Positions 8,239 through 39,612 of a stretch of 64,000 nucleotides of DNA are shown in pieces. The notes under the pieces were generated by a model. It was not told the origin of the DNA. It saw nothing but the letters and a program-made list of their open reading frames with translations, and did not search any database. The DNA comes from Acidimicrobiia bacterium (GTDB lineage Bacteria; Actinomycetota; Acidimicrobiia; Spongiisociales; UBA5794): positions 23,031 through 87,030 of the forward strand of contig JAUIIM010000003.1 in NCBI GenBank assembly GCA_030431785.1. Direction: 5' to 3'. Each line of letters begins with the position of its first letter. Positions within the stretch are counted from its first letter, which is position 1. The position numbers were made by a program, and so were the translations under genes.

Positions 8239-8298
8239 GACAACTCCCTCTCTTCGGAGGCCCCGATCCTATCACCGGGACCTCCAGGATTCCGGGCC

Positions 8299-8781: not shown

Positions 8782-8822
8782 ACCCTGCGTCCTCAGGTTG
8801 GTCAGGAACCAGGGCCGAGACT

Positions 8823-8850
8823 GGGATCTGAGATCTGGGATCAGCCTTGC
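8823..8850. repeat. Heptamer repeats of the same family as 1320-1538
   Basis: GGGATCT GAGATCT GGGATCA GCCTTGC in tandem, overlapping the stop of the 8841 gene. Confidence 0.7.
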
Positions 8851-9923: not shown

Positions 9924-10231
9924 GTCATGCCTCCTGCGAACGACTCACCCCTAGTAACCGATGAAGGGAAGTCCTACGCGACGAGAGAATCCGCGCACGT
10001 GGACACCGGAACCCGGTGACGGCTGGCCTCGTACTCCTACTCGACGTCCGGTGGTTCGCCCGACTCGAGGATCAGTACGCCGAAAAGGGGTACCGCGTCG
10101 CCGAACTCATCACTGGTTCGGTACTCGCCGCGCCAGACGACTAGAACACGAGCCCCCTCGTCGTCCTTCGGAAGAACGGAGAGTCCCTACCGCACATATC
10201 GGTGGTCTCGTGACTAAGAAGGTCCGCAGCG

Positions 10232-11071: not shown

Positions 11072-11105
11072 CCCTTGATCCTACCGGCGCACTGTCGCGC
11101 CGACG

Positions 11106-23360: not shown

Positions 23361-24533
23361 TTGCAGCAGACACACATCCGTACCACCGCCATCGCCGTAG
23401 CCCTCGCACTCGCCATCGTCGGGTGCGCCGGTACCGATACGGCGACGGAAACCTCGACGTCGACCACGGTGGCGTCGACCACCACGACCACCCTTCCGCC
23501 CTACGACTTCGACGCGGTTTCGGACTTGATGTCCGACTTCGTCCAACAGCAGGGTCTCGCCGGTGCCGGTCTCATCGTCCTCGACCGCGATCACGGAACG
23601 GTCCACGAGGAGTACTGGGGCGACTTCACTGCCGATCGTGTGTCACTGATCGCATCGGCGAGCAAGATGCTGAGCGCTGGAGTTCTCCTCCGGCTCTCCG
23701 ACCTCGGGCTCCTCGACCTCGATCTTCCGATTGCGGACCAGGTCGACTGGGTGACAGACAATCCGACGATCACACCGGCGCAGTTGCTGTCCAACAGCTC
23801 GGGCCTCGTCGGTATCTATCAGGATCCCGTGTACTTCCCGTACCTCTGCCAGTACCTCCCCGAGCCGACCATCCAGGAGTGCGGGGAGACCATCTTCACG
23901 ACGACCGACGATGATGCCGACATCATCCCACCGGACACGGCGTTTCGGTATGGCGGCGGCCAGTGGCAGGTCGCCGGTGCCGTCGCCGAGGCGGTCTCCG
24001 GGCTGTCGTGGGCGGCGTTGATCGACGAGACCTACATCGAACCGTGCGGACTCGCACCGGGGAGCCTCGGATACGGCAACTACTTCTCCCAGATGGGGAA
24101 CGGCTATGACTACCCGACCGAGTTCGGGGGCGATCCCACGATGTTCGATCCCACGGAAAACCCGAACATCGAAGCCGGCGCCTATGCGACACCTGACGTG
24201 TTCGAGCAGGTCCTTCTCATGTACCTGCGTGGTGGTGAATGCCGGGGCGGGGAACGAGTGCTGTCGCCCCAAGCGGTCGACCGGGCGGTAACCGACCGGG
24301 TGCGAGAGGTGTACGGCGGAAGCGCAGGTCCCGCGCGCGGCTACGGGCTCGGCATGTGGGTCGAACGCGGGACCGGCTGGACGAACTCGGTCGGAGCATT
24401 CGGGGCGACACCCGCGCTCAACATCGAAGAGGGAATCGCCTACTACCTCGTCATCGAAGCGAACGAAGCGACGTGGAAGTCGATCGACCAGGCGTTGCGT
24501 CTCGCCATAGAAGACGTCATGGGTACCGACTGA
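23361..24533 (+). CDS. Serine hydrolase (beta-lactamase/PBP4* family) lipoprotein
   Basis: SASK (S-x-x-K) motif. TTG start chosen downstream of the doxX stop. Lipobox IVGCAG. Confidence 0.8.
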   Translation: MQQTHIRTTAIAVALALAIVGCAGTDTATETSTSTTVASTTTTTLPPYDFDAVSDLMSDFVQQQGLAGAGLIVLDRDHGTVHEEYWGDFTADRVSLIASASKMLSAGVLLRLSDLGLLDLDLPIADQVDWVTDNPTITPAQLLSNSSGLVGIYQDPVYFPYLCQYLPEPTIQECGETIFTTTDDDADIIPPDTAFRYGGGQWQVAGAVAEAVSGLSWAALIDETYIEPCGLAPGSLGYGNYFSQMGNGYDYPTEFGGDPTMFDPTENPNIEAGAYATPDVFEQVLLMYLRGGECRGGERVLSPQAVDRAVTDRVREVYGGSAGPARGYGLGMWVERGTGWTNSVGAFGATPALNIEEGIAYYLVIEANEATWKSIDQALRLAIEDVMGTD

Positions 24534-24563
24534 AACGTCGACGGCACAGTGGAAGTACGTCCG

Positions 24564-26297
24564 TCACGCGATCGAACGGACCTCAGATGCCTCCTCGTCG
24601 GGCGCGACGACATCGAGGTCTTGGGCGGCCGCTCCTGGAACGGTGACGAAGAAGCACGCTCCCCCGAGGATCTCCGATGTCCGATAGCTAGCCGAGCCGC
24701 CGTGGGCTTCGGCGATCGCTCGGACGATGGCGAGCCCGATACCCGAACCCGGCGTCACGGCATTGAGACGGTTGGGGCCTCGTTCGAAGCGTTCCCACAC
24801 GCGGACCTCGTGACGTCGTGGAACTCCCGGTCCGTCGTCGTGCACCTCGAACGTGACGGAGTCGTCGTCGGTGACGATCTTGAGTCGCGTCGTCGATCCG
24901 CCGTAGCGAGCGGCGTTGGTGAGAAGGTTGACGAGGACTTGCTGCATTCGGGCACGGTCGACCAGCGCAACGAAGTCCGGCTGAGGTTCCAGACCGACGG
25001 CGTCCGGACTCCTACCTGTGGCTTGGATCGCCGCGGTTGCGAGTTCGTCCACGGGGACTGGTTCGACCTCGAGGTTGAGGGATCCATCCGAACCTCGAGC
25101 GAGCATGATCAAATCCGACACGATCGTCGACATGTAGTCGGCCTGCTCACGGATGATGCCCAGCATGCTCAACGCGTCATCGTCGAGCTTCTCGTGGTCC
25201 TCTTCGAGCAGGTCGACGAAACCGACGATCGCCGTCAGTGGTGTCCTCAACTCGTGTGAGATCGTGGTCACGAGGAGGTCGCGTTGCTCCTCGATCGTCG
25301 CACGGTATTCGAGGATGGCCACACCCTGCCGAGCGATGACGAGAACCCCGACGACGATCACTGCCGGCAAGAGGATCGGATCCGACGCCGCCTCCGCACC
25401 GACGATCGTCTCCACGACGAACACGGCCAACATCCCGAAGGCCGGGACGTACGGAGTGACCTGCGTCCAGAGCGGTGGATTGCGATCGGCATACTCGCGA
25501 CCGGCGGTCGGCATGCCAACGACCCACGCTGAAGCGAAGAAGAAGCCCATGGCAGTCAGATTGACCCAATAGGGCGGGTTGGCAGCTTGAAACGAACCCG
25601 ACTGTGCCGCTGCGAAGAAGGCGATATCTCCGAGCACCTGGAAGAAGACGGCGATGGCGAACAGTGCGACGCGGAGGTCGAACCGGTGACGCGACCTCCG
25701 GAGCAACACTGTCATTGCCACGGTGAGGATTGCGAGGTCGAGGAAAGGATAGAAGGCGCCGATCATCCGAGTCATCATCGAGGCATCGGCGAGGTTGGAG
25801 GTCATCTCGCCGAGGAAGAGAACCCACAACAACGCTGCGATCGACACGGCACCGATGAGCCCGTCGAGGACCATCCGAAGCCGCTGCATCGGCGACCCGT
25901 GGACCTGTGGGAGGACGGCGGCACCGATGAGGACCAGGACGTAGGTCGCGAGGAAGAACAGATCGGTCCAGCCGAACGCCGGTGCATCGCCCTGGACCAA
26001 GAAGACGACACCGACGACGAGAACACCGAGTGCGGCGACACACATGCCGGTACCGACCAGCGACCATCCCAGACGCTCTCGACCGTTGAGGGCTCCGGCG
26101 TTCTTGATGAACAGGACACCGGCGAGGGTGGCACCGATCATCACACCGATCGCACCGGCGGAGTCGGCAACATCCTTGGTACCGACGAGGGTCAGCAGCG
26201 CACAGAACGCGAGGAACCCGAACACCGCCTTGGGGAAGGTTCCGAACCGTTTGGTGGTGCTCGTGTTCGTGATGGATGGGCGCGCAAGAAGCCTCAC
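24564..26297 (-). CDS. Sensor histidine kinase with about 10 TM helices and no large extracytoplasmic domain; no cognate response regulator adjacent
   Basis: 577 aa. H-box ISHELRTPLTAIVGF, N-box LLTNAARYG, DDGPGVP, GSGIGLAIV. N-terminal ~330 aa almost entirely hydrophobic helices. Confidence 0.9.
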   Translation of the reverse strand: MRLLARPSITNTSTTKRFGTFPKAVFGFLAFCALLTLVGTKDVADSAGAIGVMIGATLAGVLFIKNAGALNGRERLGWSLVGTGMCVAALGVLVVGVVFLVQGDAPAFGWTDLFFLATYVLVLIGAAVLPQVHGSPMQRLRMVLDGLIGAVSIAALLWVLFLGEMTSNLADASMMTRMIGAFYPFLDLAILTVAMTVLLRRSRHRFDLRVALFAIAVFFQVLGDIAFFAAAQSGSFQAANPPYWVNLTAMGFFFASAWVVGMPTAGREYADRNPPLWTQVTPYVPAFGMLAVFVVETIVGAEAASDPILLPAVIVVGVLVIARQGVAILEYRATIEEQRDLLVTTISHELRTPLTAIVGFVDLLEEDHEKLDDDALSMLGIIREQADYMSTIVSDLIMLARGSDGSLNLEVEPVPVDELATAAIQATGRSPDAVGLEPQPDFVALVDRARMQQVLVNLLTNAARYGGSTTRLKIVTDDDSVTFEVHDDGPGVPRRHEVRVWERFERGPNRLNAVTPGSGIGLAIVRAIAEAHGGSASYRTSEILGGACFFVTVPGAAAQDLDVVAPDEEASEVRSIA

Positions 26298-26356
26298 CCA
26301 TTTGTCATCGGCGGATTCCCGAGGGAATAAAGCGGTTCAGCGGAACCGTCGTGCGG

Positions 26357-27640
26357 TCATTTGAGCTCGATGTGCCACTCGACCGGCGTCACGAGGCCCT
26401 TGATGTTCTTGGTGAGGGCGTCCATGAATCGCTCGAGGTCGCGCTCCGTCTGGAACGCGGTGGTCGTGAACCGGATTCCGTCCATGCCTTTCGGGACCAC
26501 GGGGAAGCCGGACAGATTCACATAGAAGCCGTCGTCCATCATGCGCCGGGTGTACTCCATCGCATTCTCGAGTGTGCCGCAGCGGACGAACCAGAGCGGG
26601 GTCCGCTCCAGCGACAAGGCAGGCAGTTGGGCGTCCACGAGACGGTCACGCACGTAGTCGATCCGGGAAAGGAGTTGCCGCTCACGCTCGTCGCGCTCGG
26701 GAGACAGGTGGAAGTCCGCCGCGGCGACGGCTGCTCCCAGCTCGGCGGGATGAACGGGTCCGGAGAACGTGAACGTTGCACCTGCGAGAAGCACCGCATC
26801 CGCCATCTCCTGCGAGGGGAGGACCACGACGGAACCACCTGCTCCCCACGACTTTGCGAGGGAGCCGATGACGATCATCCGCTCGTGGAACGGCACTTCG
26901 GAGAAGACATGACCGATGCCGTGGCGGCCCTTCCACCCCACGCCGTGGGCGTCGTCGTAGTAGAGGAAGAGGTTGGGGAACTCGTCGAGCAACGGGGCGA
27001 TTCGGCGCACGGGTGCCGAGTCGCCATACATCGAGTAGATCCCGTCGGCGAGGTACCACACCCGCGCGTGTTTCGACGCATCGGCGGTCAGGGCACTGTG
27101 GAGAGCTTCGACATCGTTGTGGGGGATGGTGCGGACGGTGGCCCCGAGCCCACGGAGCACACCGGTCGTGAGTTGCACGGAGGCGTGGACCTGATGGTCG
27201 AGGAGGACGAGATCACCCGGCGCCACGAGAACGGGCAACACCGACAAGTGCCCCAGGGTCGTGGTCGTCGGGATGAGCACGTGACCGGGCGTGAAGATCT
27301 TCTGGAGCCGGTCTTCAAGGTCCGAGTACAAATCGACGGACGTGTACGCAGCCGACGAAGAGTAGACCGGCCCGTAGCGATCGAGCGCAGCCTTGGCTCC
27401 GTCGATGAGCCGCTGATCGGTGTTGAGCCCGAGATAGGCGCAGGATCCGTAGTTGAGCAGATCCTGCCCGTTGACATTGATCGTGCGACTGTCGGATGAT
27501 TGATCGTGGACTCTGAGTCGTATCAGTCCGTTGTCCACGGCAGTGCCCAGCCGCTCTTGGACGACTTTGAGCATCTTCTCTCGATCGGACACCACTTTCG
27601 CATCCACGGTTCCCGGCCTCCACATCCATCTACCGACCAC
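26357..27640 (-). CDS. Alpha-oxoamine synthase family PLP-dependent acyltransferase (BioF/Kbl/Spt/CqsA superfamily)
   Basis: NYGSCAYLGLN, DHQVHASV, YYDDAHGVG, SLAKSWG (PLP Lys). Start ambiguous (27640 GTG / 27625 ATG / 27574 ATG). Confidence 0.85.
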   Translation of the reverse strand: MVGRWMWRPGTVDAKVVSDREKMLKVVQERLGTAVDNGLIRLRVHDQSSDSRTINVNGQDLLNYGSCAYLGLNTDQRLIDGAKAALDRYGPVYSSSAAYTSVDLYSDLEDRLQKIFTPGHVLIPTTTTLGHLSVLPVLVAPGDLVLLDHQVHASVQLTTGVLRGLGATVRTIPHNDVEALHSALTADASKHARVWYLADGIYSMYGDSAPVRRIAPLLDEFPNLFLYYDDAHGVGWKGRHGIGHVFSEVPFHERMIVIGSLAKSWGAGGSVVVLPSQEMADAVLLAGATFTFSGPVHPAELGAAVAAADFHLSPERDERERQLLSRIDYVRDRLVDAQLPALSLERTPLWFVRCGTLENAMEYTRRMMDDGFYVNLSGFPVVPKGMDGIRFTTTAFQTERDLERFMDALTKNIKGLVTPVEWHIELK

Positions 27641-27736
27641 GAAACCGCACCATACCCGCCAAGTGACTAGACAGCGCGAATCTCAACCCGCACGGCTAGC
27701 AGGACGTTCGGCTCGGGATCGCGGAGCACGCCACTC

Positions 27737-27761
27737 GGTGCGCTCCCAACTCCGGAGTGGG
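27737..27761 (-). terminator. Hairpin just downstream of the ABC-2 permease stop
   Basis: CGCTCCCA-ACTCCGGAG-TGGGAGCG, 8-bp stem; loop contains palindrome CTCCGGAG. No U-tract. Confidence 0.4.
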
Positions 27762-27766
27762 AGCGA

Positions 27767-28510
27767 TCACTCCCATCGGAAGACACGGGTTGCGACCACA
27801 CCGAGAACCGCGGCATACACCACCATCACGAGCAGGTGCTGGATCGACGGAACGGAACCGGTGGCTGCGTCGGTCATCGCCTGCACCGCGGCACCCAGCG
27901 GTGTCAGGTTGGCCACCGTGGCCAATCCGTCCGACATGAAGGCTCTGGGCACGTAGACCCCGGCGAAGAACAGCATCGGGAAGAACAATGCGAATCCGAG
28001 TACTTGCGCAACCGAGGTCGAGCGGGCTACCGCCCCGATGAGCAAGCCCAGCGCAAGCATCGACGCCGTGCCCAACACGAACGAGACCGCAAACCAGATC
28101 GGCGACTCCGGAAGGGGAACACCGAACGCAACGGCCCCTGCCACCAGGGTCAGCGCCACACCGGCGATCGCGACCATCGCGATCACGTTGAGGTGCGCAA
28201 CGAGGAGCTTGGCCGGATGCACCGGCGTTGTACGCATCCTGCGGAGGATGCCTTCTTCCCGGTCAGTGACGATCGTCATCGGGAGGGTCATCAGCGAGAG
28301 CATCGCCAGCGCCAGGCCGATCACGGTCGACGGGTATACGTCGATCAACCGAGCACCGTCGAGTTCGGCGAGCGGCTCGTCGAACCCGGGGAACAGGAAG
28401 CCGATCGCAACCAGCAGCAGGGGCGGGAACACGAGGCCGAACGTGAGCCACATCGGCTCGCGGAGGAAGAGCTTGGTGTCGAGTCGGGTGAGTGATGCGA
28501 TCGCGCTCAT
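27767..28510 (-). CDS. ABC-2 type transporter permease
   Basis: 247 aa, 6 TM, overlaps the upstream ATPase stop by 4 nt. Confidence 0.85.
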   Translation of the reverse strand: MSAIASLTRLDTKLFLREPMWLTFGLVFPPLLLVAIGFLFPGFDEPLAELDGARLIDVYPSTVIGLALAMLSLMTLPMTIVTDREEGILRRMRTTPVHPAKLLVAHLNVIAMVAIAGVALTLVAGAVAFGVPLPESPIWFAVSFVLGTASMLALGLLIGAVARSTSVAQVLGFALFFPMLFFAGVYVPRAFMSDGLATVANLTPLGAAVQAMTDAATGSVPSIQHLLVMVVYAAVLGVVATRVFRWE

Positions 28511-29448
28511 TCGCCTGCCTCCGATCCGATAGAGGATCCGCTCGTCTCGCCCGTCAGGGTGAGGTACGCGTCCTCGAGGCTCGACGTATCGACCCGAAGG
28601 TGGTCGGCAGCGATGCCGCGTTCGGCAAGTGACGAGAGGACCGCAAGCACCATGCTTCCGTCGCCTGTCGCTCTGACCAGGTCACCGTCGACCTCTGCCT
28701 CGGCCACGCCCGGGATCGCTCGGATCTCCTCGACGGGGAGCGGCGTAGAGGGTCGGAAGGACATCACCTGTGCGGCACCGGCAGCCCTCATCAGGCCATT
28801 CGGGGTGTCGATGGCGGCGATGCGGCCACCGTCGAGGACCATGACGCGATCGCACAAGCGCTCGACCTCGTCCATGAAGTGCGTGACGAGGATGACAGTC
28901 ACGCCAGCGTTCCGAATCTTCTCGACGGCATCCCAGGTCGACCGCCGAGCACGCGGATCGAGTCCTGTCGTCAGCTCGTCGAGGATCACGACCTCGGGTG
29001 ACCCGACGAGAGCCAGAGCTATGGACAGGCGCTGCTTCATGCCTCCCGACAGGCTCGCATATGAGGCATCCAGCTTGTCGGTCAAGCCGAACCGCTCGGC
29101 CAATTCGGCCCAATCTGCTGGCGCCTCGTAGAACGTCGAGAAGGTCTGCAGGATCTCACCCACCCGGGCTCGCTTCTGGAGGCGCGACTCTTGGAGTTGG
29201 ATGCCGAGGCGTTGTGTCAAGTCGGCGCGATCGCGGATCGGCTCGCGACCGAGCACGGTGATCGAGCCACCATCGGGTTCGCGCAGTCCACCGATGGACT
29301 CCACGAGTGTGGTCTTGCCGGCACCGTTCGGGCCGACGATGCCGAAGATCTCGCCGCCATCGATCGAGAACGTGACGTCGTCGAGCACACTGACGGACCC
29401 GTAGGACTTGGCGAGTTCCCGGACGTCGATGACGGTCGCGGCGCTCAC
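28507..29448 (-). CDS. ABC transporter ATP-binding protein (DrrA-like exporter ATPase)
   Basis: GPNGAGKTT, LSGGMKQRL, VVILDELTTGLD. GTG start. Confidence 0.9.
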   Translation of the reverse strand: MSAATVIDVRELAKSYGSVSVLDDVTFSIDGGEIFGIVGPNGAGKTTLVESIGGLREPDGGSITVLGREPIRDRADLTQRLGIQLQESRLQKRARVGEILQTFSTFYEAPADWAELAERFGLTDKLDASYASLSGGMKQRLSIALALVGSPEVVILDELTTGLDPRARRSTWDAVEKIRNAGVTVILVTHFMDEVERLCDRVMVLDGGRIAAIDTPNGLMRAAGAAQVMSFRPSTPLPVEEIRAIPGVAEAEVDGDLVRATGDGSMVLAVLSSLAERGIAADHLRVDTSSLEDAYLTLTGETSGSSIGSEAGE

Positions 29449-29862
29449 GCTGCTGCCCTACGCAATGAACTCTTGGTGTCGGGGACCGTGGGCGACACGC
29501 CGTCGTGTGCCCCGACGAGCGCTGCAAGGACGGTACTTGTCGGTCCGAGGGCGCCAAACCCTCCCAGTCTTTGTGTCAGATGCATGACAAATGCCTCTCT
29601 CATTGCTGTCCCTCACTCGAGGGCTGACACCAGCATGTCCTAGATCCGTGCTGGGCACATCAGGCTGAAGGCTAGAGCGACGTGGTCCGGCGGTCGATTC
29701 GCGCGTCGTACTTTCGGTGGATGACCGAGGTCGGATCGCCGTTCCACCCGTGGTTGGCCGAGATGCGCGCAATGGTGCCTACATGAGCTCATGCAGTCGT
29801 CGACGAAACGCAGCGATGCCAAGGGCTGCCCATTGACAAGGTAGAAGGATGATCCCGGAACC

Positions 29863-29912
29863 AGTGGCACGCCCGGAGGGACTCGAACCCCCAACCTTCT
29901 GATCCGTAGTCA
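29863..29912 (-). repeat. Duplicated 3' half of tRNA-Arg (distal att site of the island)
   Basis: 50 nt identical to 33414-33463. Covers the tRNA from the anticodon loop to CCA plus 2 nt. The 5' half is absent. Confidence 0.9.
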
Positions 29913-30033
29913 TGGGCGCGCCTCTCGTGACGACAGCGACGATCCAGGCTGCCCTCAGGCATTCCCCACTGCGCATCGCCACGTCACGCCTGCCGATAGG
30001 GGCGCCGTCGGGGCACGTTGCCAAGGCCCTGGG

Positions 30034-30052
30034 GCAGGCACGATATGCCTGC
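30034..30052. promoter_or_regulatory. Inverted repeat upstream of the island cassette (candidate operator)
   Basis: GCAGGCA-CGATA-TGCCTGC. Also a 9-nt direct repeat TGTGAAGTA at 30105-30113 and 30117-30125, the second copy reaching the A of the ATG at 30125. Confidence 0.3.
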
Positions 30053-30124
30053 TCCTCTCAGGTCAAGAGCTCGGATTCAAGTCAACGCCGCAGTTCGCCG
30101 CGAATGTGAAGTAGAGTGTGAAGT

Positions 30125-30937
30125 ATGAGTTGGACCCACTCCCCCCCGACACCCTTCGGTGACCCGTGCGAGCGAGTACCTCTTCCTGACGCGCCACTCG
30201 CGCTCGTCCTCGCGCAGGTTCGGTTCACGCCGATCGTCAGCATCGCCAACGCCGACTACATCGCCAGCTTCCAAGAGTCAATCCGCCAGAACTACCCGAT
30301 CCTGACACGCGAACTCCAGCAGCAGATTCAGCTCGGGCCACAGGGCCTGCAGACCACACCACCGCCAACTCCAGGGGTCATATGGCGCTTCGTGGACCAG
30401 GATCAGAATTGGCGCTTGTCGCTGGCTCAGGACTTCATCGCAGTCGAGACAAGTAACTACACGCACCGCGACGACTTCCATAAACGACTCGCCCAAGCGC
30501 TCACGGCACTCGAGGACCACTTGCGTCCGGGACTTACCACGCGCATTGGCGTTCGATACATGGACAGGATCGCAGGCGACATGACTACGAGGCTTGAGGA
30601 CTACGTGCGTCCTGAGTTGCTCAGCCTTGAAGCTACCGACCTTGGCTCAGCGAGACTGGATAGCGGAGTCACCGAAGCGCACTTCGCCGTGGACGATGTC
30701 GCCCTGAAGGCTCGGTGGGGTTCTCTACCGATCGGCGTTGTCCACGACCCCATCGTTCAACCGCTCGCCGACCAGAGAACCTGGGTGCTGGACCTGGACG
30801 CGTCAACAACCGATGCAGGACCGTTCGATGCCTCGGCCATTGCAGAGAGCGCCAAGAAGTTCGGTGAGGTGATCTATCGATTCTTCCGTTGGGCAGTTTC
30901 GGATGAATTCCTGAGGGAGTTCGGAGGGGACGTATGA
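30125..30937 (+). CDS. Island cassette gene 1: TIGR04255-like uncharacterised protein
   Basis: 270 aa. N-terminal PLPDAPLALVLAQVRF and the overall length resemble the TIGR04255 family as I recall it. Not verified by search. Confidence 0.65.
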   Translation: MSWTHSPPTPFGDPCERVPLPDAPLALVLAQVRFTPIVSIANADYIASFQESIRQNYPILTRELQQQIQLGPQGLQTTPPPTPGVIWRFVDQDQNWRLSLAQDFIAVETSNYTHRDDFHKRLAQALTALEDHLRPGLTTRIGVRYMDRIAGDMTTRLEDYVRPELLSLEATDLGSARLDSGVTEAHFAVDDVALKARWGSLPIGVVHDPIVQPLADQRTWVLDLDASTTDAGPFDASAIAESAKKFGEVIYRFFRWAVSDEFLREFGGDV

Positions 30938-31605
30938 CAACATTGAGCCAAGAGAAGAGCAGCACGTCATCTCTCGACCTGCATCCCATCAGCATCATCT
31001 ACAAAGGCACAGCAGCCGAACCCGACGGGACTGCGATGGTCGAGGCGACCACTTACGTTGTCGCTGGAGGCGTGGCGAAGGTCATCCACCATGAGGTCAG
31101 CGGCTGGGGCCGGATAGTGAAGGACACCTTGTCCAAGCTCTCCAGTAGCTCAGCCGGGTTCAGTGCTGATGAGCTTGTCATTGCCGTGGACAATGAGGAG
31201 CATCCCCTTCCCCATGCTGCGACTCGGGTTCGTGCTCTCTATGGGCAGTCCGGCCTGACCTGGAACCAGGTCGCGAGGATGTTCGGAGTGAGCCGACGAT
31301 CCGTCCATGCATGGGCGCGTGGCGGTCGCATGAACGCGCGGAACTCCGAGCGCCTCGCAACGATTGAGTCTGCCGTAGAAGCGAATCGAAGAGAGTCACC
31401 TAGTGCAACACGCGAGGCCCTCTTGAACGCGAGCAATGGCCCCTCTGTCTTCCAGCGCCTGACGAGCAATGCGAGAGCGCAAGCAGATCACAAGGACGAC
31501 GTGCACCGACTCCTCGCTTCGACCGCCGGCGGCGCGAGCGCACGGGGGGCGGACACATCATTCGAGAACGTTGACTGGCCGGCCACGAGCGGTGATGAGT
31601 ACTAG
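30934..31605 (+). CDS. Island cassette gene 2: protein with Xre/antitoxin-like HTH
   Basis: 223 aa. ATGA overlap with gene 1. LTWNQVARMFGVSRRSVHAWARGGRMNARNSERL. Confidence 0.65.
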   Translation: MTTLSQEKSSTSSLDLHPISIIYKGTAAEPDGTAMVEATTYVVAGGVAKVIHHEVSGWGRIVKDTLSKLSSSSAGFSADELVIAVDNEEHPLPHAATRVRALYGQSGLTWNQVARMFGVSRRSVHAWARGGRMNARNSERLATIESAVEANRRESPSATREALLNASNGPSVFQRLTSNARAQADHKDDVHRLLASTAGGASARGADTSFENVDWPATSGDEY

Positions 31606-32587
31606 GAGCAATGAAGAACCAGCTGCGCCTCTGTCTCCACTTGCGTCATGGAGGCAGGGCGATGTGGCCAAGCCTGGAGGTTTCCAGTGGTTGGCAAATG
31701 CGAACAGACCGTCTAGCGATGCGGCAGCTGAGTCGGTCGAAAGCGGCGCGGAGAACACCTTCACTGTCTGGGAGCGCTTCGAGGGCCTCGTAGTCCTCAC
31801 GCCGACCTGTGACATTCACCCGAGGGACAAAAAGGATCGGCCCTTCGTCACGGTGTGCCCGCTCGTCGAGCTTCCGGATGAAGTTGACGTAGGCAAGGCC
31901 AAGGACGGCTACCACATCCGATACGTACACGTGCCTGGAGCGTCCGATCCAGCTGCGTTTGCCGATCTTGATCGAACACAGACCATCGAAACCGGCCTCC
32001 TCGAGGAATGCGAAAGGATTCCCGGGCTACATACCGACGAAGAGCAAGCTGACTTCGCTAGAGCGGTGGCCCGCAAGTTCAATCGTTTCGCCTTCCCAGA
32101 CGCGCTGCAGAGGGCAATCAGCAAATGGCGGAACAAGGTCGTAGACAGCCACTCCAAGCCGAACAGCGCGGAGGGTCAGCTCTTTCGCGATGCACTCACC
32201 ATCCGTGCAGCCGCGGAGCCGTCCTGGAGCGAGAACAGCATCGAAGTCACCATCTACGTGATCATGCCCGACGGGTGGCTACCGGAATCCAGTCCGGCGG
32301 GTACGCGCACCGTCGGAGTCGTGGATGAGCTGGCCAGAATGCGAACCTCCGAAATCGCCAAACGCCTCGTGACCGAGTCCGATGACCAAGTTCGGCTCGA
32401 TCTCGTCGAAGCTCTCCAAGTGGGCTGGACTCGAAGGTGTAGACCGGCTGATGAGATCAGCGATGTCTCATTCGTTCTCATCGGTGCGAACGAGTTCACC
32501 TATGCAGACGTTGAGGCAAGCCAGTCGCTCGACCTGGACTTCGTTTCCGGAGAAGATGACGAAGACATCGACGATGAGGGCGACTAG
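31595..32587 (+). CDS. Island cassette gene 3: orphan protein with poly-acidic C-terminus
   Basis: 330 aa from ATG 31595 (11-nt overlap with gene 2). Ends SGEDDEDIDDEGD. No family recognised. Confidence 0.6.
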   Translation: MSTRSNEEPAAPLSPLASWRQGDVAKPGGFQWLANANRPSSDAAAESVESGAENTFTVWERFEGLVVLTPTCDIHPRDKKDRPFVTVCPLVELPDEVDVGKAKDGYHIRYVHVPGASDPAAFADLDRTQTIETGLLEECERIPGLHTDEEQADFARAVARKFNRFAFPDALQRAISKWRNKVVDSHSKPNSAEGQLFRDALTIRAAAEPSWSENSIEVTIYVIMPDGWLPESSPAGTRTVGVVDELARMRTSEIAKRLVTESDDQVRLDLVEALQVGWTRRCRPADEISDVSFVLIGANEFTYADVEASQSLDLDFVSGEDDEDIDDEGD

Positions 32588-32766
32588 TCGAGGACCTGCA
32601 AGCCAGGGTGCTGACGGGGAATCCGAAGGTCGGGCAATGGTTCGGCGGGGGCGAACTCCCTCAACCACAAGGATCACGGGTGAACTCGACTCGCCGTCAG
32701 ATGCACTCTGGGGGCGCGGGAGGGGCATAGCAGTTGATCTCGCCGCTCATCCTGGGCGATCGAGCT

Positions 32767-33117
32767 TCAGGCTGAGTCGTTCCTCGGAAGCGTTGGGAGG
32801 GCGGAGATGTGATCGATCCGTCCATCCCGATGAACGCCCGCGACCTGAACAATGCCGGACGCGCCGTTCACGACTTTGCCGAGATCATCCAGTGCTGATG
32901 CATCTGCGCTCACGGCAGCCATGATCGAGTTGGAGAGCTTGTCGATGGTGGCGTGTCCCTTGTAGGTGTTCATCGTGACGGTGATGTCGTCGTGCCCCGC
33001 CATGTCTCGGACATCACTGATCGGAACCCCCTTGTCGATCCAGATGTCCACGAAAGTCGCGCGCAGGGAGTGTGGCGTGCAGTGATCAAGGCCATTTGAC
33101 GCACCTACCCGTCTCAC
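32767..33117 (-). pseudogene. Tyrosine recombinase/integrase, C-terminal catalytic fragment only
   Basis: TPHSLRATFV (HxxR), MAGHDDITVTMNTY (H...Y). The frame is closed by a stop 11 codons upstream of the first listed residue. Only ~300 nt separate it from the tRNA. Confidence 0.75.
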
Positions 33118-34448: not shown

Positions 34449-35645
34449 CTAGCCAGTGCGCAATGCCTCCGTCGGAGACATCCGGGACGCACGAACTGCC
34501 GGGTACAAACCGGCAAGGCTGCCGATGATCAGTGCGGCGCCAAGGCCACCGAAGACGGCGAGCTGCGAGACGAGCACGTCCCATTCCCGGTAGCTCGACC
34601 AGATCGCCGTGATGAGATAACCGAGGCCGACACCGACGACGCCTCCGAGGATCGACAACAGCAATGCCTCCCCGAGGAACTGGACGGCGATGTGGCGTTT
34701 CGTCGCCCCGATCGCCCGACGCAGACCGATCTCGGCACGGCGCTCCAGCACCGAGATCACCATGACATTGGCGATCCCGACACCTCCGACGAACAGCGCC
34801 ACGGCACCGAGACCGAGGAACAACGCGGTCAGCGTGTCGTCGGCAGCTTCTCGTGCTTCGAGGGCATCCGTCGGTCGACTGACCTCCACCTCTTCAGGGT
34901 TGATCGGATTGGCCGTCGCTGCGAGGACACCCATCACTTCGTCGGTGTACTCGGGATCAGCGCGCACGTAGACCGTCGATGGGACACCATCCGAGTCGAA
35001 GTACTGCTCCGCAGCACCGAATCCGATGAGGGCTGCGCGATCGAGGTCGGGGCTGAGCTCGAACTCATCGAGGATGCCGATCACAGTGACCCACTCGTCA
35101 CCGAGCCATACATCACCACCGGCTTCATCGATCCCGAGACGCTCCGCCGCAACCGAGCCCAGCACGACCGTTGGGAAACTCGCACTGGCTTCGTCGAACC
35201 ATCGTCCATCGGCCACGGTTCCGGCCAACGCGTCGAGGAGTGTGATGTCGACCGCCTGCACGCTGAGCCCATTCGTCCTGTCTTCCGGCATGAGATCGGT
35301 TCGGTAGACGTTCGCATCGACACTGGCGACCGCCGCCGTCTGCTCCACCGGCCCGATCCGCGAGATCATCGGTGCCGCGGTGTCAGGAAGCTCACCAGAC
35401 CCACGACCGATTCCCTCTCCGGCCTGGACCGCGATCAGGTTGGTACCCAAACGATCCAGGGTTGCCAACAACTCCGACTTGGAGGACTCGCTGAGTCCCA
35501 GCACTGCCACCATCGCAGCGATACCAATGGCGATCCCGACTGCCGAGAGGAACGCCCTTGTCTTGCGCGATCGAAGCCCGACGGCCGCCGTCCGACCTAC
35601 GTCCGCGGCGTGCAGCTTGCTTGCGACCAGCTTCTGATCGCTCAT
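34449..35645 (-). CDS. ABC transporter permease, FtsX/MacB type
   Basis: 398 aa. N-terminal TM, large periplasmic domain, C-terminal FtsX-like 3 TM. Confidence 0.85.
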   Translation of the reverse strand: MSDQKLVASKLHAADVGRTAAVGLRSRKTRAFLSAVGIAIGIAAMVAVLGLSESSKSELLATLDRLGTNLIAVQAGEGIGRGSGELPDTAAPMISRIGPVEQTAAVASVDANVYRTDLMPEDRTNGLSVQAVDITLLDALAGTVADGRWFDEASASFPTVVLGSVAAERLGIDEAGGDVWLGDEWVTVIGILDEFELSPDLDRAALIGFGAAEQYFDSDGVPSTVYVRADPEYTDEVMGVLAATANPINPEEVEVSRPTDALEAREAADDTLTALFLGLGAVALFVGGVGIANVMVISVLERRAEIGLRRAIGATKRHIAVQFLGEALLLSILGGVVGVGLGYLITAIWSSYREWDVLVSQLAVFGGLGAALIIGSLAGLYPAVRASRMSPTEALRTG

Positions 35646-36346
35646 ATCGCTGCCCCGGCGGCCACAGTCTCGCGTTCGATCTTCCCGTCACGGATCGCGA
35701 TCGTCCGAGGCAACCCATCTGCGATCTCGCGGTCGTGTGTGATGACGATCACCGTCGTCCCCATGTCGACCAGTTCACGCAGGAGAGCCATCACCGAGTC
35801 CCCGGTGGCAGTGTCCAGGTTCCCGGTCGGTTCATCGGCGAGGACGATCTCAGGCGACCCGATGATCGCTCGCGCAACCGCGACCCGTTGGCGTTCCCCA
35901 CCCGAGAGCTTCGTGGCAAGGTGGTCCAAACGGTGCCCCATACCGACGCGGTCGAGTGCGACCGCTGCGTGGAACCGTCGCTCATCCAGTGGCAACCCGG
36001 TGTAGAGCAAGCCATCGGCGACGTTGTCGAGCGCCGTGTACCCGGACAGCAAGTGGAACTGCTGGAAGACGAAACCGATGTGACGCGACCGCAGCGATGA
36101 CAGCTTTCGATCCGACAGCTTGCTGACGTCGTAGCCGACGACCTCCACGAGACCCGAGCTTGCACGGTCCAAGGTGCCCATCACATGCAAGAGTGTGGAC
36201 TTCCCCGACCCGGACGGACCGACCACGCCGAGGAGCTCGCCTTCCTCGACGGTGAACGAGATCCCATCCACCGCACGCACGGGTGGCGTGCTGTCGTACA
36301 CCTTGACGACGTCTTCCAGCCTCAGGACGGTGCGTGATGCGCTCAT
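35642..36346 (-). CDS. ABC transporter ATP-binding protein (MacB/LolD-like)
   Basis: GPSGSGKSTL, LSGGERQRVAVARA, IVLADEPTGNLD. Confidence 0.9.
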   Translation of the reverse strand: MSASRTVLRLEDVVKVYDSTPPVRAVDGISFTVEEGELLGVVGPSGSGKSTLLHVMGTLDRASSGLVEVVGYDVSKLSDRKLSSLRSRHIGFVFQQFHLLSGYTALDNVADGLLYTGLPLDERRFHAAVALDRVGMGHRLDHLATKLSGGERQRVAVARAIIGSPEIVLADEPTGNLDTATGDSVMALLRELVDMGTTVIVITHDREIADGLPRTIAIRDGKIERETVAAGAAI

Positions 36347-37491
36347 GGCACCACGACCTGGTCGCCCGGAGCGATGTCGCCAATGACCTCGATCAAGCCA
36401 CTGGCATAGAAGCCGGTCTCGACAGGGACCAACTGTGTCCCGGAACCGATGGCGACCTCGACCGCGTATCCGCCCTCGGAGAGGGCCAGCAGGGCCTCGA
36501 CCGGCACGGCGACGACATCAGTCACACGATCGGTGATCACGGAAATCGTCACCGGCGCCTCGTCGATGCCTTCGGCGACCGACGGATCGTCCAAAGACAC
36601 GACGACGTCGAGCGTTGCCTGACCTGCTCCCGCGGTGGAGGTTGCGATGGTGGAGATCTCCTCTACGGTGCCAGTCGTGACCGTGAGGTCCGGCATGGTC
36701 ACTTCGACTTGATCGCCGACGGCGAGGCTGTCCTGTTGCGTCGTCGGCAGGTCGAACTCGATCTCCAACTCCCCGGCGGATGTGGTGAACACGGCGGTGC
36801 CGTCGTTGATGACATCGCCGACCTCGACGAGCAGCGTGTCAACGACCACGGGTTCGGCTGAGAACACGACCTCACCGAGATTGACGATCTCATCGACCGG
36901 CGCCCCGATGGCTTCTTGCCACAGTTCGACAACTGACTCCGTGATGTAGGTGAACTCTTCGTCGAGGGTCATGTCCCCGTCCTCGTCGAACCCGAGGGCG
37001 ACAAGTGCAGTCTCCAATTGGAAGATGTCGGGACCGATGTCGTCATCGCGCATCGTGCGCCAAACGGGCACATCGCCGTAGAGCAACACGACGGGTTCGT
37101 TGTCGATCCAGACGATCACGTCGCCTTGGCCGATCGTGTCACCCACCTCGGGCAAGGCCGTCACCGTCCCCGACATGCGCACGGCCATCGGATCGCCTTC
37201 CAACTGGCCGATGGTTCCTTCGTACTCCGACACCTCCTCGAGGTCTGTTCGCACGGCTTCTTCGAACTCCAATGGTTCGGCGACCGTTTCCTCATCGGCC
37301 GATTCGGTGGAGGAACCCTGTAGGGCGAACCAGATCGCCGCCGCTCCTCCGAGTACGAGTATCAGACCGACGACCCACGGGGTCTTCGACTTCCTAGGCC
37401 TCTGGTAGACAGGGGCCTTGGTCGAAGCTCCGCTGTCCGTCTTCGTCTGCGTCACCGAGTAGTCCTCCTCGTCGACAATCCGTGTGTTCAC
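36343..37491 (-). CDS. Periplasmic adaptor (HlyD/MacA-like) with peptidoglycan-binding-like segment
   Basis: GTG start in GTGA overlap with the upstream stop. N-terminal TM, then beta-barrel-type repeats. LETALVALGFDEDGD. Confidence 0.75.
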   Translation of the reverse strand: MNTRIVDEEDYSVTQTKTDSGASTKAPVYQRPRKSKTPWVVGLILVLGGAAAIWFALQGSSTESADEETVAEPLEFEEAVRTDLEEVSEYEGTIGQLEGDPMAVRMSGTVTALPEVGDTIGQGDVIVWIDNEPVVLLYGDVPVWRTMRDDDIGPDIFQLETALVALGFDEDGDMTLDEEFTYITESVVELWQEAIGAPVDEIVNLGEVVFSAEPVVVDTLLVEVGDVINDGTAVFTTSAGELEIEFDLPTTQQDSLAVGDQVEVTMPDLTVTTGTVEEISTIATSTAGAGQATLDVVVSLDDPSVAEGIDEAPVTISVITDRVTDVVAVPVEALLALSEGGYAVEVAIGSGTQLVPVETGFYASGLIEVIGDIAPGDQVVVP

Positions 37492-38111
37492 GCGTTCCCC
37501 CCGCCGGCTCGTCCCCCGCCGCCCCCGCCCGGTCCGCCGCCACCAAAGCCGCGACCGACGTTCGGCAGGAGGTCCTCGCATTGGTCGAGTGCTGCTTCGA
37601 CCTCGGGATCCTGGAAGTCGATGCCAAATGGACCGCCTTCGCCTGGCGTTCCACCCGGTCCGAGGTCTGAGAGGTCCGGATCGGCGACGTCGACACCCTG
37701 GTCACGAAGACACGCTGCAAGTTCGATGAGCTGATCCTGGAGTTCGGTCTGATCGATCTGACCGAATCCGAACGCTGCACCATCGAGGAACTCACCACAC
37801 GCCTCGAACGCTCCCTGGATCTCCTCACGGGCTCCGTCGTCTGCCTGCCCCTCGCCGGGCTCGGGGAGGTTCAGCGGACGGCCAGGGGTGACGTTGCCGT
37901 CGGCATCCACCGTTGGATCCTCCATGTCGACACCGTTCTCACGCATACAGGCGGTGAAGGCGATGGCTGCCTCTTCGGCGCTCATCTCCTCGGTCACGTC
38001 GGTGGCTCCCGGCTCTGCGACTTCAAGGCTGGCTACGCCCTCACCGGCATCGGCAGTCCCGCTACATGCGGTGACGAAAAGTGCCACGGCTATGAGCAAT
38101 CGGAATTTCAT
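37488..38111 (-). CDS. Hypothetical lipoprotein with internal duplication and Gly-rich tail
   Basis: MKFRLLIAVALFVTAC. Duplicated ACxRxxGVDxxDP motif. Tail GGGGPGGGGGGRAGGGNA. Confidence 0.6.
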   Translation of the reverse strand: MKFRLLIAVALFVTACSGTADAGEGVASLEVAEPGATDVTEEMSAEEAAIAFTACMRENGVDMEDPTVDADGNVTPGRPLNLPEPGEGQADDGAREEIQGAFEACGEFLDGAAFGFGQIDQTELQDQLIELAACLRDQGVDVADPDLSDLGPGGTPGEGGPFGIDFQDPEVEAALDQCEDLLPNVGRGFGGGGPGGGGGGRAGGGNA

Positions 38112-39611: not shown

Positions 39612-39612
39612 C

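What the first reader, a model, noticed from the sequence alone, without database searches (positions are those of the whole stretch)
24564..27640. Alpha-oxoamine-synthase-family enzyme directly upstream of an orphan ~10-TM sensor kinase: CqsA/CqsS-like architecture in a high-GC genome
**Seen in the sequence**
- A PLP-dependent AOS-family acyltransferase (YLGL, DDAHG, SLAKSWG motifs) lies 59 nt upstream of a histidine kinase on the same strand.
- The kinase's whole sensor region is about 10 membrane helices with no sizeable periplasmic domain.
- No response regulator is adjacent.
- An ABC-2 exporter pair lies immediately upstream on the same strand, separated by a hairpin at 27737-27761.

**Established knowledge**
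- In Vibrio (CqsA/CqsS) and Legionella (LqsA/LqsS), an AOS-family enzyme makes alpha-hydroxyketone or amino-ketone autoinducers.
- These are sensed within the membrane by a polytopic kinase encoded next to it.
- To my knowledge such modules are described in Proteobacteria and a few other Gram-negative lineages, not in Actinobacteria.

**Inference**
- This pair may be a small-lipid signal synthase/receptor module, possibly with its own exporter.
- The enzyme motifs alone cannot distinguish CqsA-like from BioF/Kbl/Spt-like activity.
Basis: partly seen in the sequence, partly recalled or inferred. Interest (0 to 1): 0.75.

Follow-up and report, generated by a model that had tools for sequence, protein, structure and literature searches.

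The report
Conserved aminoketone-synthase / membrane-kinase gene pair
An uncultured Acidimicrobiia bacterium carries a two-gene cassette, a divergent alpha-oxoamine synthase followed by a histidine kinase whose sensor is ten membrane helices; the pair is kept together in nearly every relative examined and looks like an undescribed small-molecule synthase/receptor unit, though neither protein belongs to the Vibrio CqsA/CqsS families.

Summary
**Observation.** The description holds. An AOS-family PLP enzyme (26357-27607, minus strand) lies 59 nt upstream of a 577-aa HisKA/HATPase kinase (24564-26297). The kinase's first ~335 residues form 10 membrane helices. No response regulator is adjacent.

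**New evidence.**
- The adjacency is the only conserved feature of the locus.
- A homologous kinase follows the enzyme in 77 of 80 related loci, down to 44% enzyme identity. One of the other three is truncated and two lack it.
- The flanking genes change from clade to clade.
- The ABC-2 exporter is not conserved with the pair.

**Family placement.**
- The enzyme is not CqsA. It scores 65 bits against a 428-bit cut-off for the CqsA family model.
- It is also not BioF, Kbl, SPT or ALAS.
- It forms its own clade, sister to the PRK07505/Alb29 group.
- The sensor has no Pfam family and no structural neighbour in the PDB.
- The sensor belongs to a large unnamed 10-TM input-domain superfamily that is also fused to GGDEF-EAL and PAS outputs.

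**Reading.** The most likely reading is an analogue, not a homologue, of CqsA/CqsS: the enzyme makes a lipophilic aminoketone-type product that the kinase senses in the membrane. This is inferred from genomic context only.

The parts
26357..27607 (-). Alpha-oxoamine-synthase-family PLP enzyme, 416 aa from the GTG at 27607 (the open frame runs up to 27640). It belongs to an Acidimicrobiia-specific clade sister to PRK07505/Alb29.
   Evidence: Family: Pfam PF00155. NCBIfam best hit is NF005697 (PRK07505) at 267 bits, below its 342 cut-off; bioF 184, Kbl 147, SPT 146, CqsA-type 65.5. Catalytic residues are retained: His (DHQVHAS), Asp/His (DDAHG), Lys (SLAKS) and Arg (GIRF). Clade monophyly 40/40 bootstraps.
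24564..26297 (-). Orphan sensor histidine kinase, 577 aa. Sensor domain: residues 1-338 (25284-26297). HisKA: 25089-25283. HATPase_c: 24636-24959.
   Evidence: Pfam HisKA and HATPase_c. H-box SHELRTPLT and the N, G1 and G2 boxes are invariant in 23 homologues. A homologue lies directly downstream of the enzyme in 77/80 loci.
25284..26297 (-). Ten-helix membrane sensor domain with no periplasmic domain. Conserved membrane Asp residues: D112, D145, D187, D224. Conserved YPFLD motif. Subfamily-specific loops: LLRRSxxRFDxR and REYADRNPPLW.
   Evidence: AF2 model with ten helices. No Pfam family even at E<=10. No PDB structural neighbour (best E 0.08, TM<=0.4). Profile search finds 3826 representatives, including GGDEF-EAL, PAS-HK and hybrid-HK proteins.
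26298..26356 (-). 59-nt gap between the enzyme and kinase genes. It carries a bipartite promoter-like motif: CTTTAT (26332-26327), 15 nt, CCGATG (26311-26306). The kinase GTG lies 14 nt after the first C of the second element.
   Evidence: The relaxed form (CCGAY followed by an in-frame start) was assigned in 76 of 78 sequences, i.e. 77 loci plus the window; the full consensus is CT(T/A)CA(C/T)-N15-18-CCGAT(A/G). The start codon lies 14 nt after it in 40 of 76. The strict pattern occurs 33 times in the gap, 5 times elsewhere in 1.0 Mb, and about 2 times by shuffling. The gap is not significantly structured as RNA (z = -0.75).
27608..27766 (-). Upstream region of the enzyme gene. It contains hairpins after the ABC-2 stop codon (about 27775-27715), a -10-like TATGGT (27654-27649) and a GGAGG ribosome-binding site (27621-27617).
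   Evidence: Hairpin fold -31.4 kcal/mol, z = -2.97. A GTATGGTCG / TAGGGT box is conserved upstream of the enzyme in the seven closest relatives. Sequence read.
27767..29448 (-). ABC-2 permease (27767-28510) and ABC ATPase (28507-29448). These are neighbours only, not part of the conserved unit.
   Evidence: Pfam ABC2_membrane and ABC_tran; NCBIfam DrrA/DrrB-like. Homologues lie near the pair only in L006, on the opposite strand.

Best explanation
**Proposal.** This is a two-gene signalling cassette of Acidimicrobiia that works like CqsA/CqsS without being homologous to it below the superfamily level.

**Enzyme step.** The cytoplasmic PLP enzyme condenses an amino acid with an acyl-CoA or acyl-ACP thioester, with loss of CO2. 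The product is an alpha-aminoketone, or a derivative such as a hydroxyketone, amino-alcohol or pyrazine. The chemistry is inferred from the fully retained AOS catalytic set.

**Sensing step.** The amphiphilic product partitions into the membrane. It is sensed inside the bilayer, or at the cytoplasmic face, by the ten-helix domain of the kinase encoded 59 nt downstream. This step is inferred.

**Output step.** Ligand occupancy changes autophosphorylation at the H-box histidine. The signal passes to a response regulator encoded elsewhere, since the kinase is an orphan in almost all genomes.

**Transcription.** The kinase gene has its own conserved promoter-like element in the gap, placed as for a leaderless mRNA. 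Receptor and synthase can therefore be expressed separately.

**Open point.** The data do not say whether the signal acts between cells (quorum sensing) or only on the producing cell.
For: **Linkage**
- A homologous 10-TM kinase lies directly downstream of the enzyme, on the same strand, in 77/80 loci from different species-level genomes. Enzyme identity there runs down to 44% and sensor identity down to 31%.
- ORF gaps are 8-72 nt in 54 of 57 scored pairs.
- No other gene is conserved with the pair. The flanks include ClpB, a class-I Trp/Tyr tRNA synthetase, LeuA, a DEAD helicase, SPFH/NfeD/PadR, Pirin/AlaDH and MMPL, according to clade.
- Starting from a distant kinase (41% identity) recovers the enzyme upstream.

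**The enzyme is active and not housekeeping**
- All catalytic residues are retained.
- It fails the bioF, Kbl, SPT and ALAS equivalog cut-offs by wide margins.
- No BioB, BioC, BioD or adjacent Tdh homologue lies within 8 kb in any of the 80 loci or in the window.
- It forms a separate clade with 40/40 bootstrap support.

**The membrane domain is a genuine input module**
- The same fold is fused to GGDEF-EAL, PAS-HisKA_2 and hybrid-kinase outputs in distant relatives.
- More distant kinases with this domain are not next to an AOS gene, so the link is subfamily-specific.

**Precedent (own knowledge)**
- AOS enzymes next to polytopic kinases are the CqsA/CqsS, LqsA/LqsS and JqsA/JqsS quorum-sensing systems.
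Against: - There is no experimental or expression evidence; everything rests on gene context.
- The pair appears vertically inherited and sits among housekeeping genes. That suits a core physiological role, such as the envelope or lipids, at least as well as an accessory quorum-sensing system.
- No exporter, response regulator or modifying enzyme is conserved with the pair.
- The four membrane Asp residues are shared by the whole 10-TM superfamily, so they say nothing about a specific ligand.
- The motifs specific to the AOS-linked subfamily lie in loops predicted to be cytoplasmic. This could mean protein-protein contact rather than ligand binding.
- One lineage (L051, L079) keeps the enzyme without an adjacent kinase.
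- The kinase has its own promoter-like motif. That motif also occurs before non-AOS-linked paralogues, so co-regulation is not shown.
Confidence: 0.4

Rival explanations
1. Lipid or envelope homeostasis unit. The enzyme makes the first committed intermediate of a membrane aminolipid or sphingoid-like base, as serine palmitoyltransferase does. The polytopic kinase monitors membrane state and, through an unlinked regulator, adjusts synthesis. The coupling would be regulatory feedback, not ligand and receptor.
For: - The family profile matches bacterial SPT (3a2b) as strongly as anything in the PDB (167.7 bits).
- The pair looks vertically inherited among housekeeping genes.
- An MMPL lipid-transporter-family gene lies next to the pair in about seven loci: L018, L019, L021, L024, L040 and L048 by gene clustering, and possibly L020.
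- A phospholipid-methyltransferase-like gene is nearby in the ClpB clade.
- An all-membrane sensor suits bilayer sensing.
Against: - SPT equivalog models score 108-146 bits against cut-offs of 500-670.
- In the tree the clade separates from SPT (40/40).
- No ceramide-synthase, reductase, ACP or acyl-ACP-synthetase genes accompany the enzyme in any clade.
- MMPL adjacency is confined to a minority of loci.
Confidence: 0.25
2. The two genes are coupled in some other way. For example, the kinase pathway may control expression of the enzyme for making or breaking down a metabolite that the kinase does not sense. Alternatively, the soluble enzyme may dock on the kinase's cytoplasmic loops and modulate it as a protein partner.
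For: - The motifs specific to the AOS-linked kinase subfamily, RRSxxRFDxR and REYADRNPPLW, lie in the TM6-7 and TM8-9 loops. These are cytoplasmic by the positive-inside rule (topology is my inference).
- Linkage is tight but no exporter is conserved.
Against: - There is no direct evidence for contact between the two proteins.
- Enzyme-kinase co-divergence is no more than shared descent would give (Pearson 0.85, Spearman 0.42).
Confidence: 0.2
3. Ordinary housekeeping enzyme (BioF, Kbl or ALAS) that merely happens to sit beside an unrelated kinase.
For: - JGI annotates family members as '7-keto-8-aminopelargonate synthetase-like enzyme'.
- bioF is the second-best NCBIfam model, at 184 bits.
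Against: - The bioF score is 184 bits against a cut-off of 426; Kbl 147 against 460; ALAS 101 against 338.
- The clade is distinct, with 40/40 bootstrap support.
- It has TTTTLGH in place of the SGFxAN loop and lacks the loop Arg.
- No bio or tdh genes lie nearby in the 80 loci.
- Adjacency in 77/80 loci despite complete turnover of the flanks is not what chance gives.
Confidence: 0.07

Closest known systems
CqsA/CqsS (Vibrio), LqsA/LqsS (Legionella), JqsA/JqsS (Janthinobacterium) alpha-hydroxyketone quorum sensing
   Same: - An AOS-superfamily PLP enzyme is encoded next to a histidine kinase whose sensor is entirely membrane-embedded.
- No periplasmic ligand-binding domain.
- For CqsS, no adjacent response regulator.
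   Different: - The enzyme lies in a different AOS clade: 65.5 bits on the CqsA family model against a cut-off of 428, and CqsA structures rank near the bottom of the PDB hits.
- The sensor has 10 helices rather than 6 and shares no detectable family.
- The kinase is not a hybrid; it has no receiver domain.
- The host is Acidimicrobiia, not Proteobacteria.
- The product and the signalling role are unknown.
Alb29 / NCBIfam NF005697 (PRK07505) alpha-oxoamine synthases
   Same: - This is the nearest characterised enzyme group. PRK07505 is the best NCBIfam model for the window enzyme (267 bits).
- The two clades group together against BioF, Kbl and SPT (40/40).
- Both share the motif styles K(S/G)(W/F)G(A)(G/S)GG and GFYV..(F)P.V..G..G(I/L)R.
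- Alb29 condenses L-glutamate with acyl-CoAs (PMC11906848).
   Different: - Identity to Alb29 is only 31%.
- The score is below the family cut-off of 342, whereas Alb29 itself scores 444.7.
- True PRK07505 genes in Chromobacterium and Nocardia sit in clusters of an MFS transporter, the AOS gene and acyl-CoA carboxylase subunits, with no kinase.
Bacterial serine palmitoyltransferase (e.g. Sphingobacterium multivorum, PDB 3A2B)
   Same: - Same fold and the same catalytic residues.
- It is the top PDB match to the family profile (167.7 bits).
   Different: - The window enzyme falls far below the SPT equivalog cut-offs.
- It separates from SPT in the tree.
- No sphingolipid pathway genes are nearby.
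Membrane-embedded input domains of the MASE type (own knowledge)
   Same: A polytopic N-terminal module found in front of several output types: histidine kinase, GGDEF-EAL and PAS-kinase.
   Different: - No match to any Pfam model, MASE families included, even at E<=10.
- It has its own signature: four membrane Asp residues, YPxxD, and a terminal RQ.

Membership tests
Alpha-oxoamine synthase (AOS) superfamily, fold-type I PLP enzymes | Significant match to Aminotran_1_2 and to solved AOS enzymes | tested here: met
   PF00155 at 82.8 bits. The PDB hits are overwhelmingly AOS-family enzymes, at E down to 7e-33 for the single sequence and 3e-48 for the profile.
Alpha-oxoamine synthase (AOS) superfamily, fold-type I PLP enzymes | Catalytic set: Schiff-base Lys, PLP-stacking His, Asp-x-x-His, and a C-terminal Arg that binds the substrate carboxylate | tested here: met
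   SLAKS (K252), DHQVHAS (H141), DDAHG (D218/D219/H221) and GIRF (R379) are invariant in 26 family members and align with the corresponding residues of SPT, BioF, Kbl and Alb29.
CqsA/LqsA alpha-hydroxyketone autoinducer synthases (NCBIfam NF005526) | Score above the curated family cut-off | tested here: not met
   65.5 bits against a cut-off of 428. Three other family members score 59-71 bits. CqsA structures 2WK8 and 3HQT score 53.8 bits against the family profile, ranking about 50th of 54.
CqsA/LqsA alpha-hydroxyketone autoinducer synthases (NCBIfam NF005526) | Produces an alpha-hydroxyketone or amino-ketone autoinducer | not testable with these tools
   Needs enzyme assays and LC-MS.
CqsS/LqsS receptor kinases | Six-helix membrane sensor; CqsS also has a C-terminal receiver domain (hybrid kinase) | tested here: not met
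   Ten helices in the AF2 model. Only HisKA and HATPase_c are found, with no Response_reg. No CqsS-type model appears among the NCBIfam hits listed. The six-helix definition is from my own knowledge.
BioF (8-amino-7-oxononanoate synthase, TIGR00858) | Score above the equivalog cut-off, and a biotin-gene context | tested here: not met
   183.7 bits against 426.45. It separates from E. coli BioF in the tree. No BioB, BioC or BioD within 8 kb in the 80 loci or the window; only a 26%-identical class-III aminotransferase 4-5 kb away in one clade.
Kbl (glycine C-acetyltransferase) | Score above the equivalog cut-off, and an adjacent tdh | tested here: not met
   147 bits against 460, and 115 against 493. 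No adjacent Tdh homologue: one weak hit about 4 kb away in L041 only.
Serine palmitoyltransferase (NF047599, NF047600, NF047603) | Score above the equivalog cut-off | tested here: not met
   146, 125 and 108 bits against cut-offs of 500, 640 and 670.
PRK07505 / Alb29 subfamily (NF005697) | Score above the subfamily cut-off of 342 | tested here: not met
   266.9 bits for the window enzyme; 221-258 bits for three other members; Alb29 itself 444.7. It is a sister clade, not a member.
Two-component sensor histidine kinase (HisKA class) | H-box His plus the N, G1 and G2 boxes of the ATPase domain | tested here: met
   HisKA 63 bits and HATPase_c 76.9 bits. SHELRTPLT, NLLTNAARYG, DDGPG and GSGIGL are conserved in 23 homologues.

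The most novel reading that the evidence does not exclude
The pair is a previously unrecognised cell-cell (or autocrine) signalling system of Acidimicrobiia. A new AOS clade makes an aminoketone-type lipid signal. The signal is read by the first ligand-assigned member of a very large, unnamed superfamily of ten-helix, four-aspartate membrane input domains. That superfamily also drives c-di-GMP enzymes and PAS kinases in many other bacteria.
Probability: 0.3. Interest if true: 0.8.

Novelty: new variant of a known kind. Interest (0 to 1): 0.62.

Why it matters
**Known signalling in the phylum.** As far as I know, small-molecule signalling in Actinobacteria means gamma-butyrolactones, butenolides and furans read by cytoplasmic TetR-type receptors. 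A membrane-kinase system fed by an AOS enzyme would be a new signalling type for the phylum. It would also be new for a class that is abundant in oceans, soils and wastewater but almost entirely uncultured.

**A handle on a large orphan family.** The result gives a concrete way into a big family of membrane sensor domains: about 3800 representatives at 50% clustering, with no Pfam model. A candidate ligand source is encoded next door.

**A new enzyme clade.** It also defines a new AOS clade whose substrates are unknown. That is of interest for aminoketone biocatalysis.

**If the lipid reading is right instead.** The pair would then point to an unknown aminolipid pathway in Acidimicrobiia.

Tried and rejected
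1. **Own exporter.** Rejected. The ABC-2 pair recurs in 1 of 80 loci, on the opposite strand. Hairpins and a conserved -10-like box separate it from the enzyme gene.
2. **Adjacent response regulator.** A stand-alone receiver lies convergent to the kinase in only five loci of one clade. There is none elsewhere and none in the window.
3. **Riboswitch or known RNA in the leader or the gap.** No Rfam match in the window at 24000-30000, or upstream of the enzyme in 12 loci.
4. **Structural neighbour for the sensor.** Foldseek against the PDB gave only generic helical-bundle matches: MFS transporters and rhodopsins, E>=0.08, TM<=0.4 normalised to the query.
5. **Pfam family for the sensor.** None, even at E<=10.
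6. **Literature.**
   - Nothing on PRK07505.
   - Nothing on Acidimicrobiia autoinducer synthases.
   - Nothing on AOS-kinase pairs in Actinobacteria.
   - The primary Alb29 papers are not in the library.
7. **Co-divergence of enzyme and sensor.** The correlation is no more than shared descent gives, so it is not used as evidence.
8. **First tree.** My first tree included a wrongly picked ORF from L058. I removed it and repeated the tree.
9. **CqsA, LqsA and HemA in the tree.** I had no full sequences for them. Their distance rests on HMM and PDB scores only.


Full report
**1. What is in the window**

On the minus strand lie four consecutive genes:
- an ABC ATPase, 29448-28507;
- an ABC-2 permease, 28510-27767;
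- an alpha-oxoamine-synthase (AOS) family PLP enzyme, with an open frame at 27640-26357;
- a histidine kinase, 26297-24564.

The database copy of the protein (P0001) and all homologues are about 416 aa. They begin at the GTG at 27607, which has a GGAGG 9 nt upstream.

The kinase is 577 aa. HisKA covers residues 339-403 and HATPase_c residues 447-554. It starts 59 nt after the enzyme's stop codon.

An AlphaFold2 model of residues 1-338 was built on 17 homologues (mean pLDDT 78, pTM 0.77). It shows ten long helices joined by short loops. By the positive-inside rule the N-terminus is cytoplasmic. That fits an even helix count in front of a cytoplasmic kinase core; the topology is my inference.

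The only receiver domain in the 64-kb window is at 39613-40314, next to another kinase.

**2. The adjacency is the conserved feature**

A scan of one genome per species with a family alignment found 321 relatives of the enzyme. The best 80 loci are almost all labelled as Acidimicrobiia MAGs.

tblastn with the window proteins gave these results:
- A homologue of the whole kinase, sensor domain included (31-74% identity), lies directly downstream on the same strand in 77 of the 80 loci.
- One locus ends at the enzyme gene.
- Two closely related loci (L051, L079) instead have a DNA methylase nearby.

ORF-to-ORF gaps are 8-72 nt in 54 of 57 scored pairs.

Clustering every ORF of the 80 loci shows that nothing else travels with the pair. 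The flanks differ by clade:
- ClpB with a PEMT-like gene and DUF427;
- SPFH/NfeD/PadR;
- LeuA, a GNAT acetyltransferase and a DEAD helicase with a class-I Trp/Tyr tRNA synthetase;
- Pirin and alanine dehydrogenase;
- MMPL with a stand-alone receiver.

Starting from a distant kinase (P0185, 41% identity) again finds the enzyme immediately upstream.

The ABC-2 pair of the window recurs in only one locus, on the other strand. It is followed by stable hairpins (z = -2.97). It is a neighbour, not a component.

**3. What the enzyme is**

NCBIfam ranks the models as follows:

| Model | Score (bits) | Cut-off (bits) |
|---|---|---|
| NF005697 (PRK07505) | 267 | 342 |
| bioF | 184 | 426 |
| Kbl | 147 | 460 |
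| SPT | 146 | 500 |
| ALAS | 101 | 338 |
| CqsA-type NF005526 | 65.5 | 428 |

Against the PDB, the family profile matches bacterial SPT (3A2B) and the 8XHA group about equally, at 167 bits. CqsA structures score 54 bits and rank near the bottom.

8XHA is Alb29 of Streptomyces albogriseolus, which condenses L-glutamate with acyl-CoAs (PMC11906848). Alb29 itself scores 444.7 bits on PRK07505, so it is a true member. The window enzyme is 31% identical to it.

A neighbour-joining tree with 40 bootstraps gave three splits, each at 40/40:
- the Acidimicrobiia clade is monophyletic;
- PRK07505 plus Alb29 is monophyletic;
- the two together separate from E. coli BioF, E. coli Kbl and SPT.

All catalytic residues are retained. 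The clade differs in having TTTTLGH where other AOS enzymes have S(G/C)FxAN. It also lacks the Arg of the glycine-rich N-terminal loop.

No BioB, BioC, BioD or adjacent Tdh homologue lies within 8 kb of the enzyme in any locus. True PRK07505 genes in Chromobacterium and Nocardia sit in clusters of an MFS transporter, the AOS gene and acyl-CoA carboxylase subunits, without a kinase.

So this is a new AOS clade with a context of its own. Its amino-acid and acyl substrates cannot be read from the sequence.

**4. What the sensor is**

The first 338 residues match no Pfam family even at E<=10. They have no significant structural neighbour in the PDB.

A word-index search found 67 close relatives. 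All that carry a taxon label come from Acidimicrobiia or other actinobacterial MAGs, apart from one bin labelled Armatimonadetes. All full-length ones have the same kinase architecture.

An exhaustive profile search found many more representatives:

| E-value threshold | Representatives |
|---|---|
| <=1e-3 | 3826 |
| <=1e-10 | 948 |
| <=1e-30 | 73 |

Distant members carry the full domain in front of GGDEF-EAL, PAS-GGDEF-EAL, PAS-HisKA_2 or hybrid-kinase outputs. It is therefore a modular input domain.

Across this superfamily the conserved positions are four Asp residues inside helices (D112, D145, D187, D224 in the window protein), a YPxxD motif and a terminal RQ. These features belong to the fold in general, not to this subfamily's ligand.

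The AOS-linked subfamily adds three motifs:
- GDAPAFGW;
- LLRRSxxRFDxR, in the TM6-7 loop;
- REYADRNPPLW, in the TM8-9 loop.

The last two lie on the predicted cytoplasmic side.

Three more distant kinases with this domain (E between 1e-25 and 1e-32) are not next to an AOS gene. The link is therefore a property of one subfamily.

**5. Regulatory DNA**

In the relaxed search, 76 of 78 sequences (77 loci plus the window) have a CCGAY followed by an in-frame start in the enzyme-kinase gap. Aligning on it gives the consensus CT(T/A)CA(C/T)-N15-18-(G)CCGAT(A/G). The kinase start codon lies at a nearly fixed distance, 14 nt from the first C in 40 of 76 cases.

The strict pattern occurs 33 times in the gap. 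It occurs 5 times elsewhere in 1.0 Mb of flanks, and about 2 times are expected by chance.

The geometry is that of a -35/-10 promoter giving a leaderless or nearly leaderless kinase mRNA. From my own knowledge, a CGAT-type -10 element recalls ECF-sigma promoters.

The same element precedes non-AOS-linked paralogues (L085, L086). It therefore belongs to the kinase gene family.

The window copy is slightly degenerate: CTTTAT-N15-CCGATG at 26332-26306.

Upstream of the enzyme, the closest relatives share a TATGGT/TAGGGT box. More distant clades have their own conserved leaders.

Enzyme and kinase may therefore be read both together and separately. The gap RNA is not significantly structured, and no Rfam family matches it.

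**6. Interpretation**

Shown by the analysis:
- an active-looking AOS enzyme of a new clade;
- an active-looking orphan kinase with a ten-helix sensor;
- a linkage between them that has survived complete turnover of the neighbourhood across a bacterial class.

Inferred, not shown:
- that the enzyme's product is what the kinase senses.

This is the most economical reading. The only known AOS-plus-membrane-kinase pairs (CqsA/CqsS, LqsA/LqsS, JqsA/JqsS) work that way, and AOS products are amphiphilic aminoketones that would reach a membrane-embedded site.

I put this reading at about 0.4. Three things hold it down:
- the vertical, housekeeping-like inheritance of the pair;
- the occasional MMPL neighbour;
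- the equal similarity to SPT.

These keep a lipid-synthesis-with-feedback model alive at about 0.25. The cytoplasmic position of the subfamily-specific loops leaves room for other couplings at about 0.2. A housekeeping BioF or Kbl role with accidental adjacency is unlikely, at about 0.07.

**7. Comparison and novelty**

The pair works like CqsA/CqsS in architecture, but it fails every testable membership criterion for those families.

I found nothing in the searchable literature describing an AOS-kinase pair in Actinobacteria, this AOS clade or this sensor superfamily. All family members come from uncultured MAGs.

I rate it a new variant of a known kind. Interest is moderately high, limited by the absence of any functional evidence.

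Noticed in passing
window 26306-26332 (minus strand); AOS-kinase gaps of L001-L080; L085, L086, L087: A bipartite motif, CT(T/A)CA(C/T)-N15-18-CCGAT(A/G), sits about 8 nt before the kinase start codon. It was assigned in 76 of 78 sequences (77 loci plus the window) and also occurs before non-AOS-linked paralogous kinases. The geometry suggests a dedicated, possibly ECF-type, promoter giving a leaderless mRNA. The factor that reads it is unknown.
   Followed up: partly
window 25284-26297 (kinase residues 1-338); proteins P0188-P0336: The ten-helix sensor belongs to a very large family with no Pfam model: 3826 representatives at E<=1e-3. Four membrane Asp residues, YPxxD and a terminal RQ are conserved across it. 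The domain is fused to kinase, GGDEF-EAL and PAS outputs. It appears to be an undescribed MASE-like input domain.
   Followed up: partly
L090 (Chromobacterium violaceum) 6001-12010; L091 (Nocardia) 4782-10861: True PRK07505/Alb29-type AOS genes sit in the same four-gene cluster in a betaproteobacterium and an actinomycete. The cluster comprises an MFS transporter, the AOS gene, an acyl-CoA carboxyltransferase and a biotin carboxylase/BCCP. This suggests a conserved, exported small-molecule pathway.
   Followed up: no
L018, L019, L020, L021, L024 (also L040, L048): In one clade an MMPL-family transporter lies divergently upstream of the pair in L018, L019, L021 and L024. A 128-aa stand-alone receiver protein lies convergently downstream in all five loci. 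In L040 and L048 the MMPL gene lies downstream instead. This is the only clade with a candidate phospho-partner or exporter next to the pair.
   Followed up: partly
L051 1526-2875; L079 7890-9251: One lineage keeps the AOS gene but has no kinase within the held flanks. A DNA N6/N4 methyltransferase lies nearby instead.
   Followed up: partly
L035, L042, L049, L050, L068, L074, L077, upstream of the AOS gene: The AOS leader in the ClpB-flanked clade is highly conserved: GCTAACTTATCCACAGGGCATAACGGGCGGTTGTAC..GCAACCGAAC..GGTAGG, with a possible GGTTG/CAACC hairpin. The one member of this clade that was scanned (L035) gave no Rfam match. Other clades have different conserved leaders.
   Followed up: partly
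window 30000-33000: A stretch of lower G+C (0.606-0.613, against about 0.63 elsewhere). Its ORFs have no Pfam family, apart from one weak HTH protein at 30934-31605. It may be a small foreign insert.
   Followed up: no
window 34449-37581 and 38196-40314 (minus strand): Reading the ORF translations only, 34449-37581 looks like a MacB-like ABC permease, an ABC ATPase and a periplasmic adaptor-like gene; no family search was run on these. Next to them is a canonical kinase / OmpR-family regulator pair at 38196-40314. That regulator carries the only receiver domain in the window.
   Followed up: no
L002, L003, L050, L070, L076 record titles: Several loci with typical Acidimicrobiia-type pairs carry record titles naming other phyla: Armatimonadetes, Gammaproteobacteria, Saprospiraceae, Acidobacteria and Kiloniellales. 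Mis-binned or mislabelled MAG contigs are more likely than horizontal transfer.
   Followed up: no
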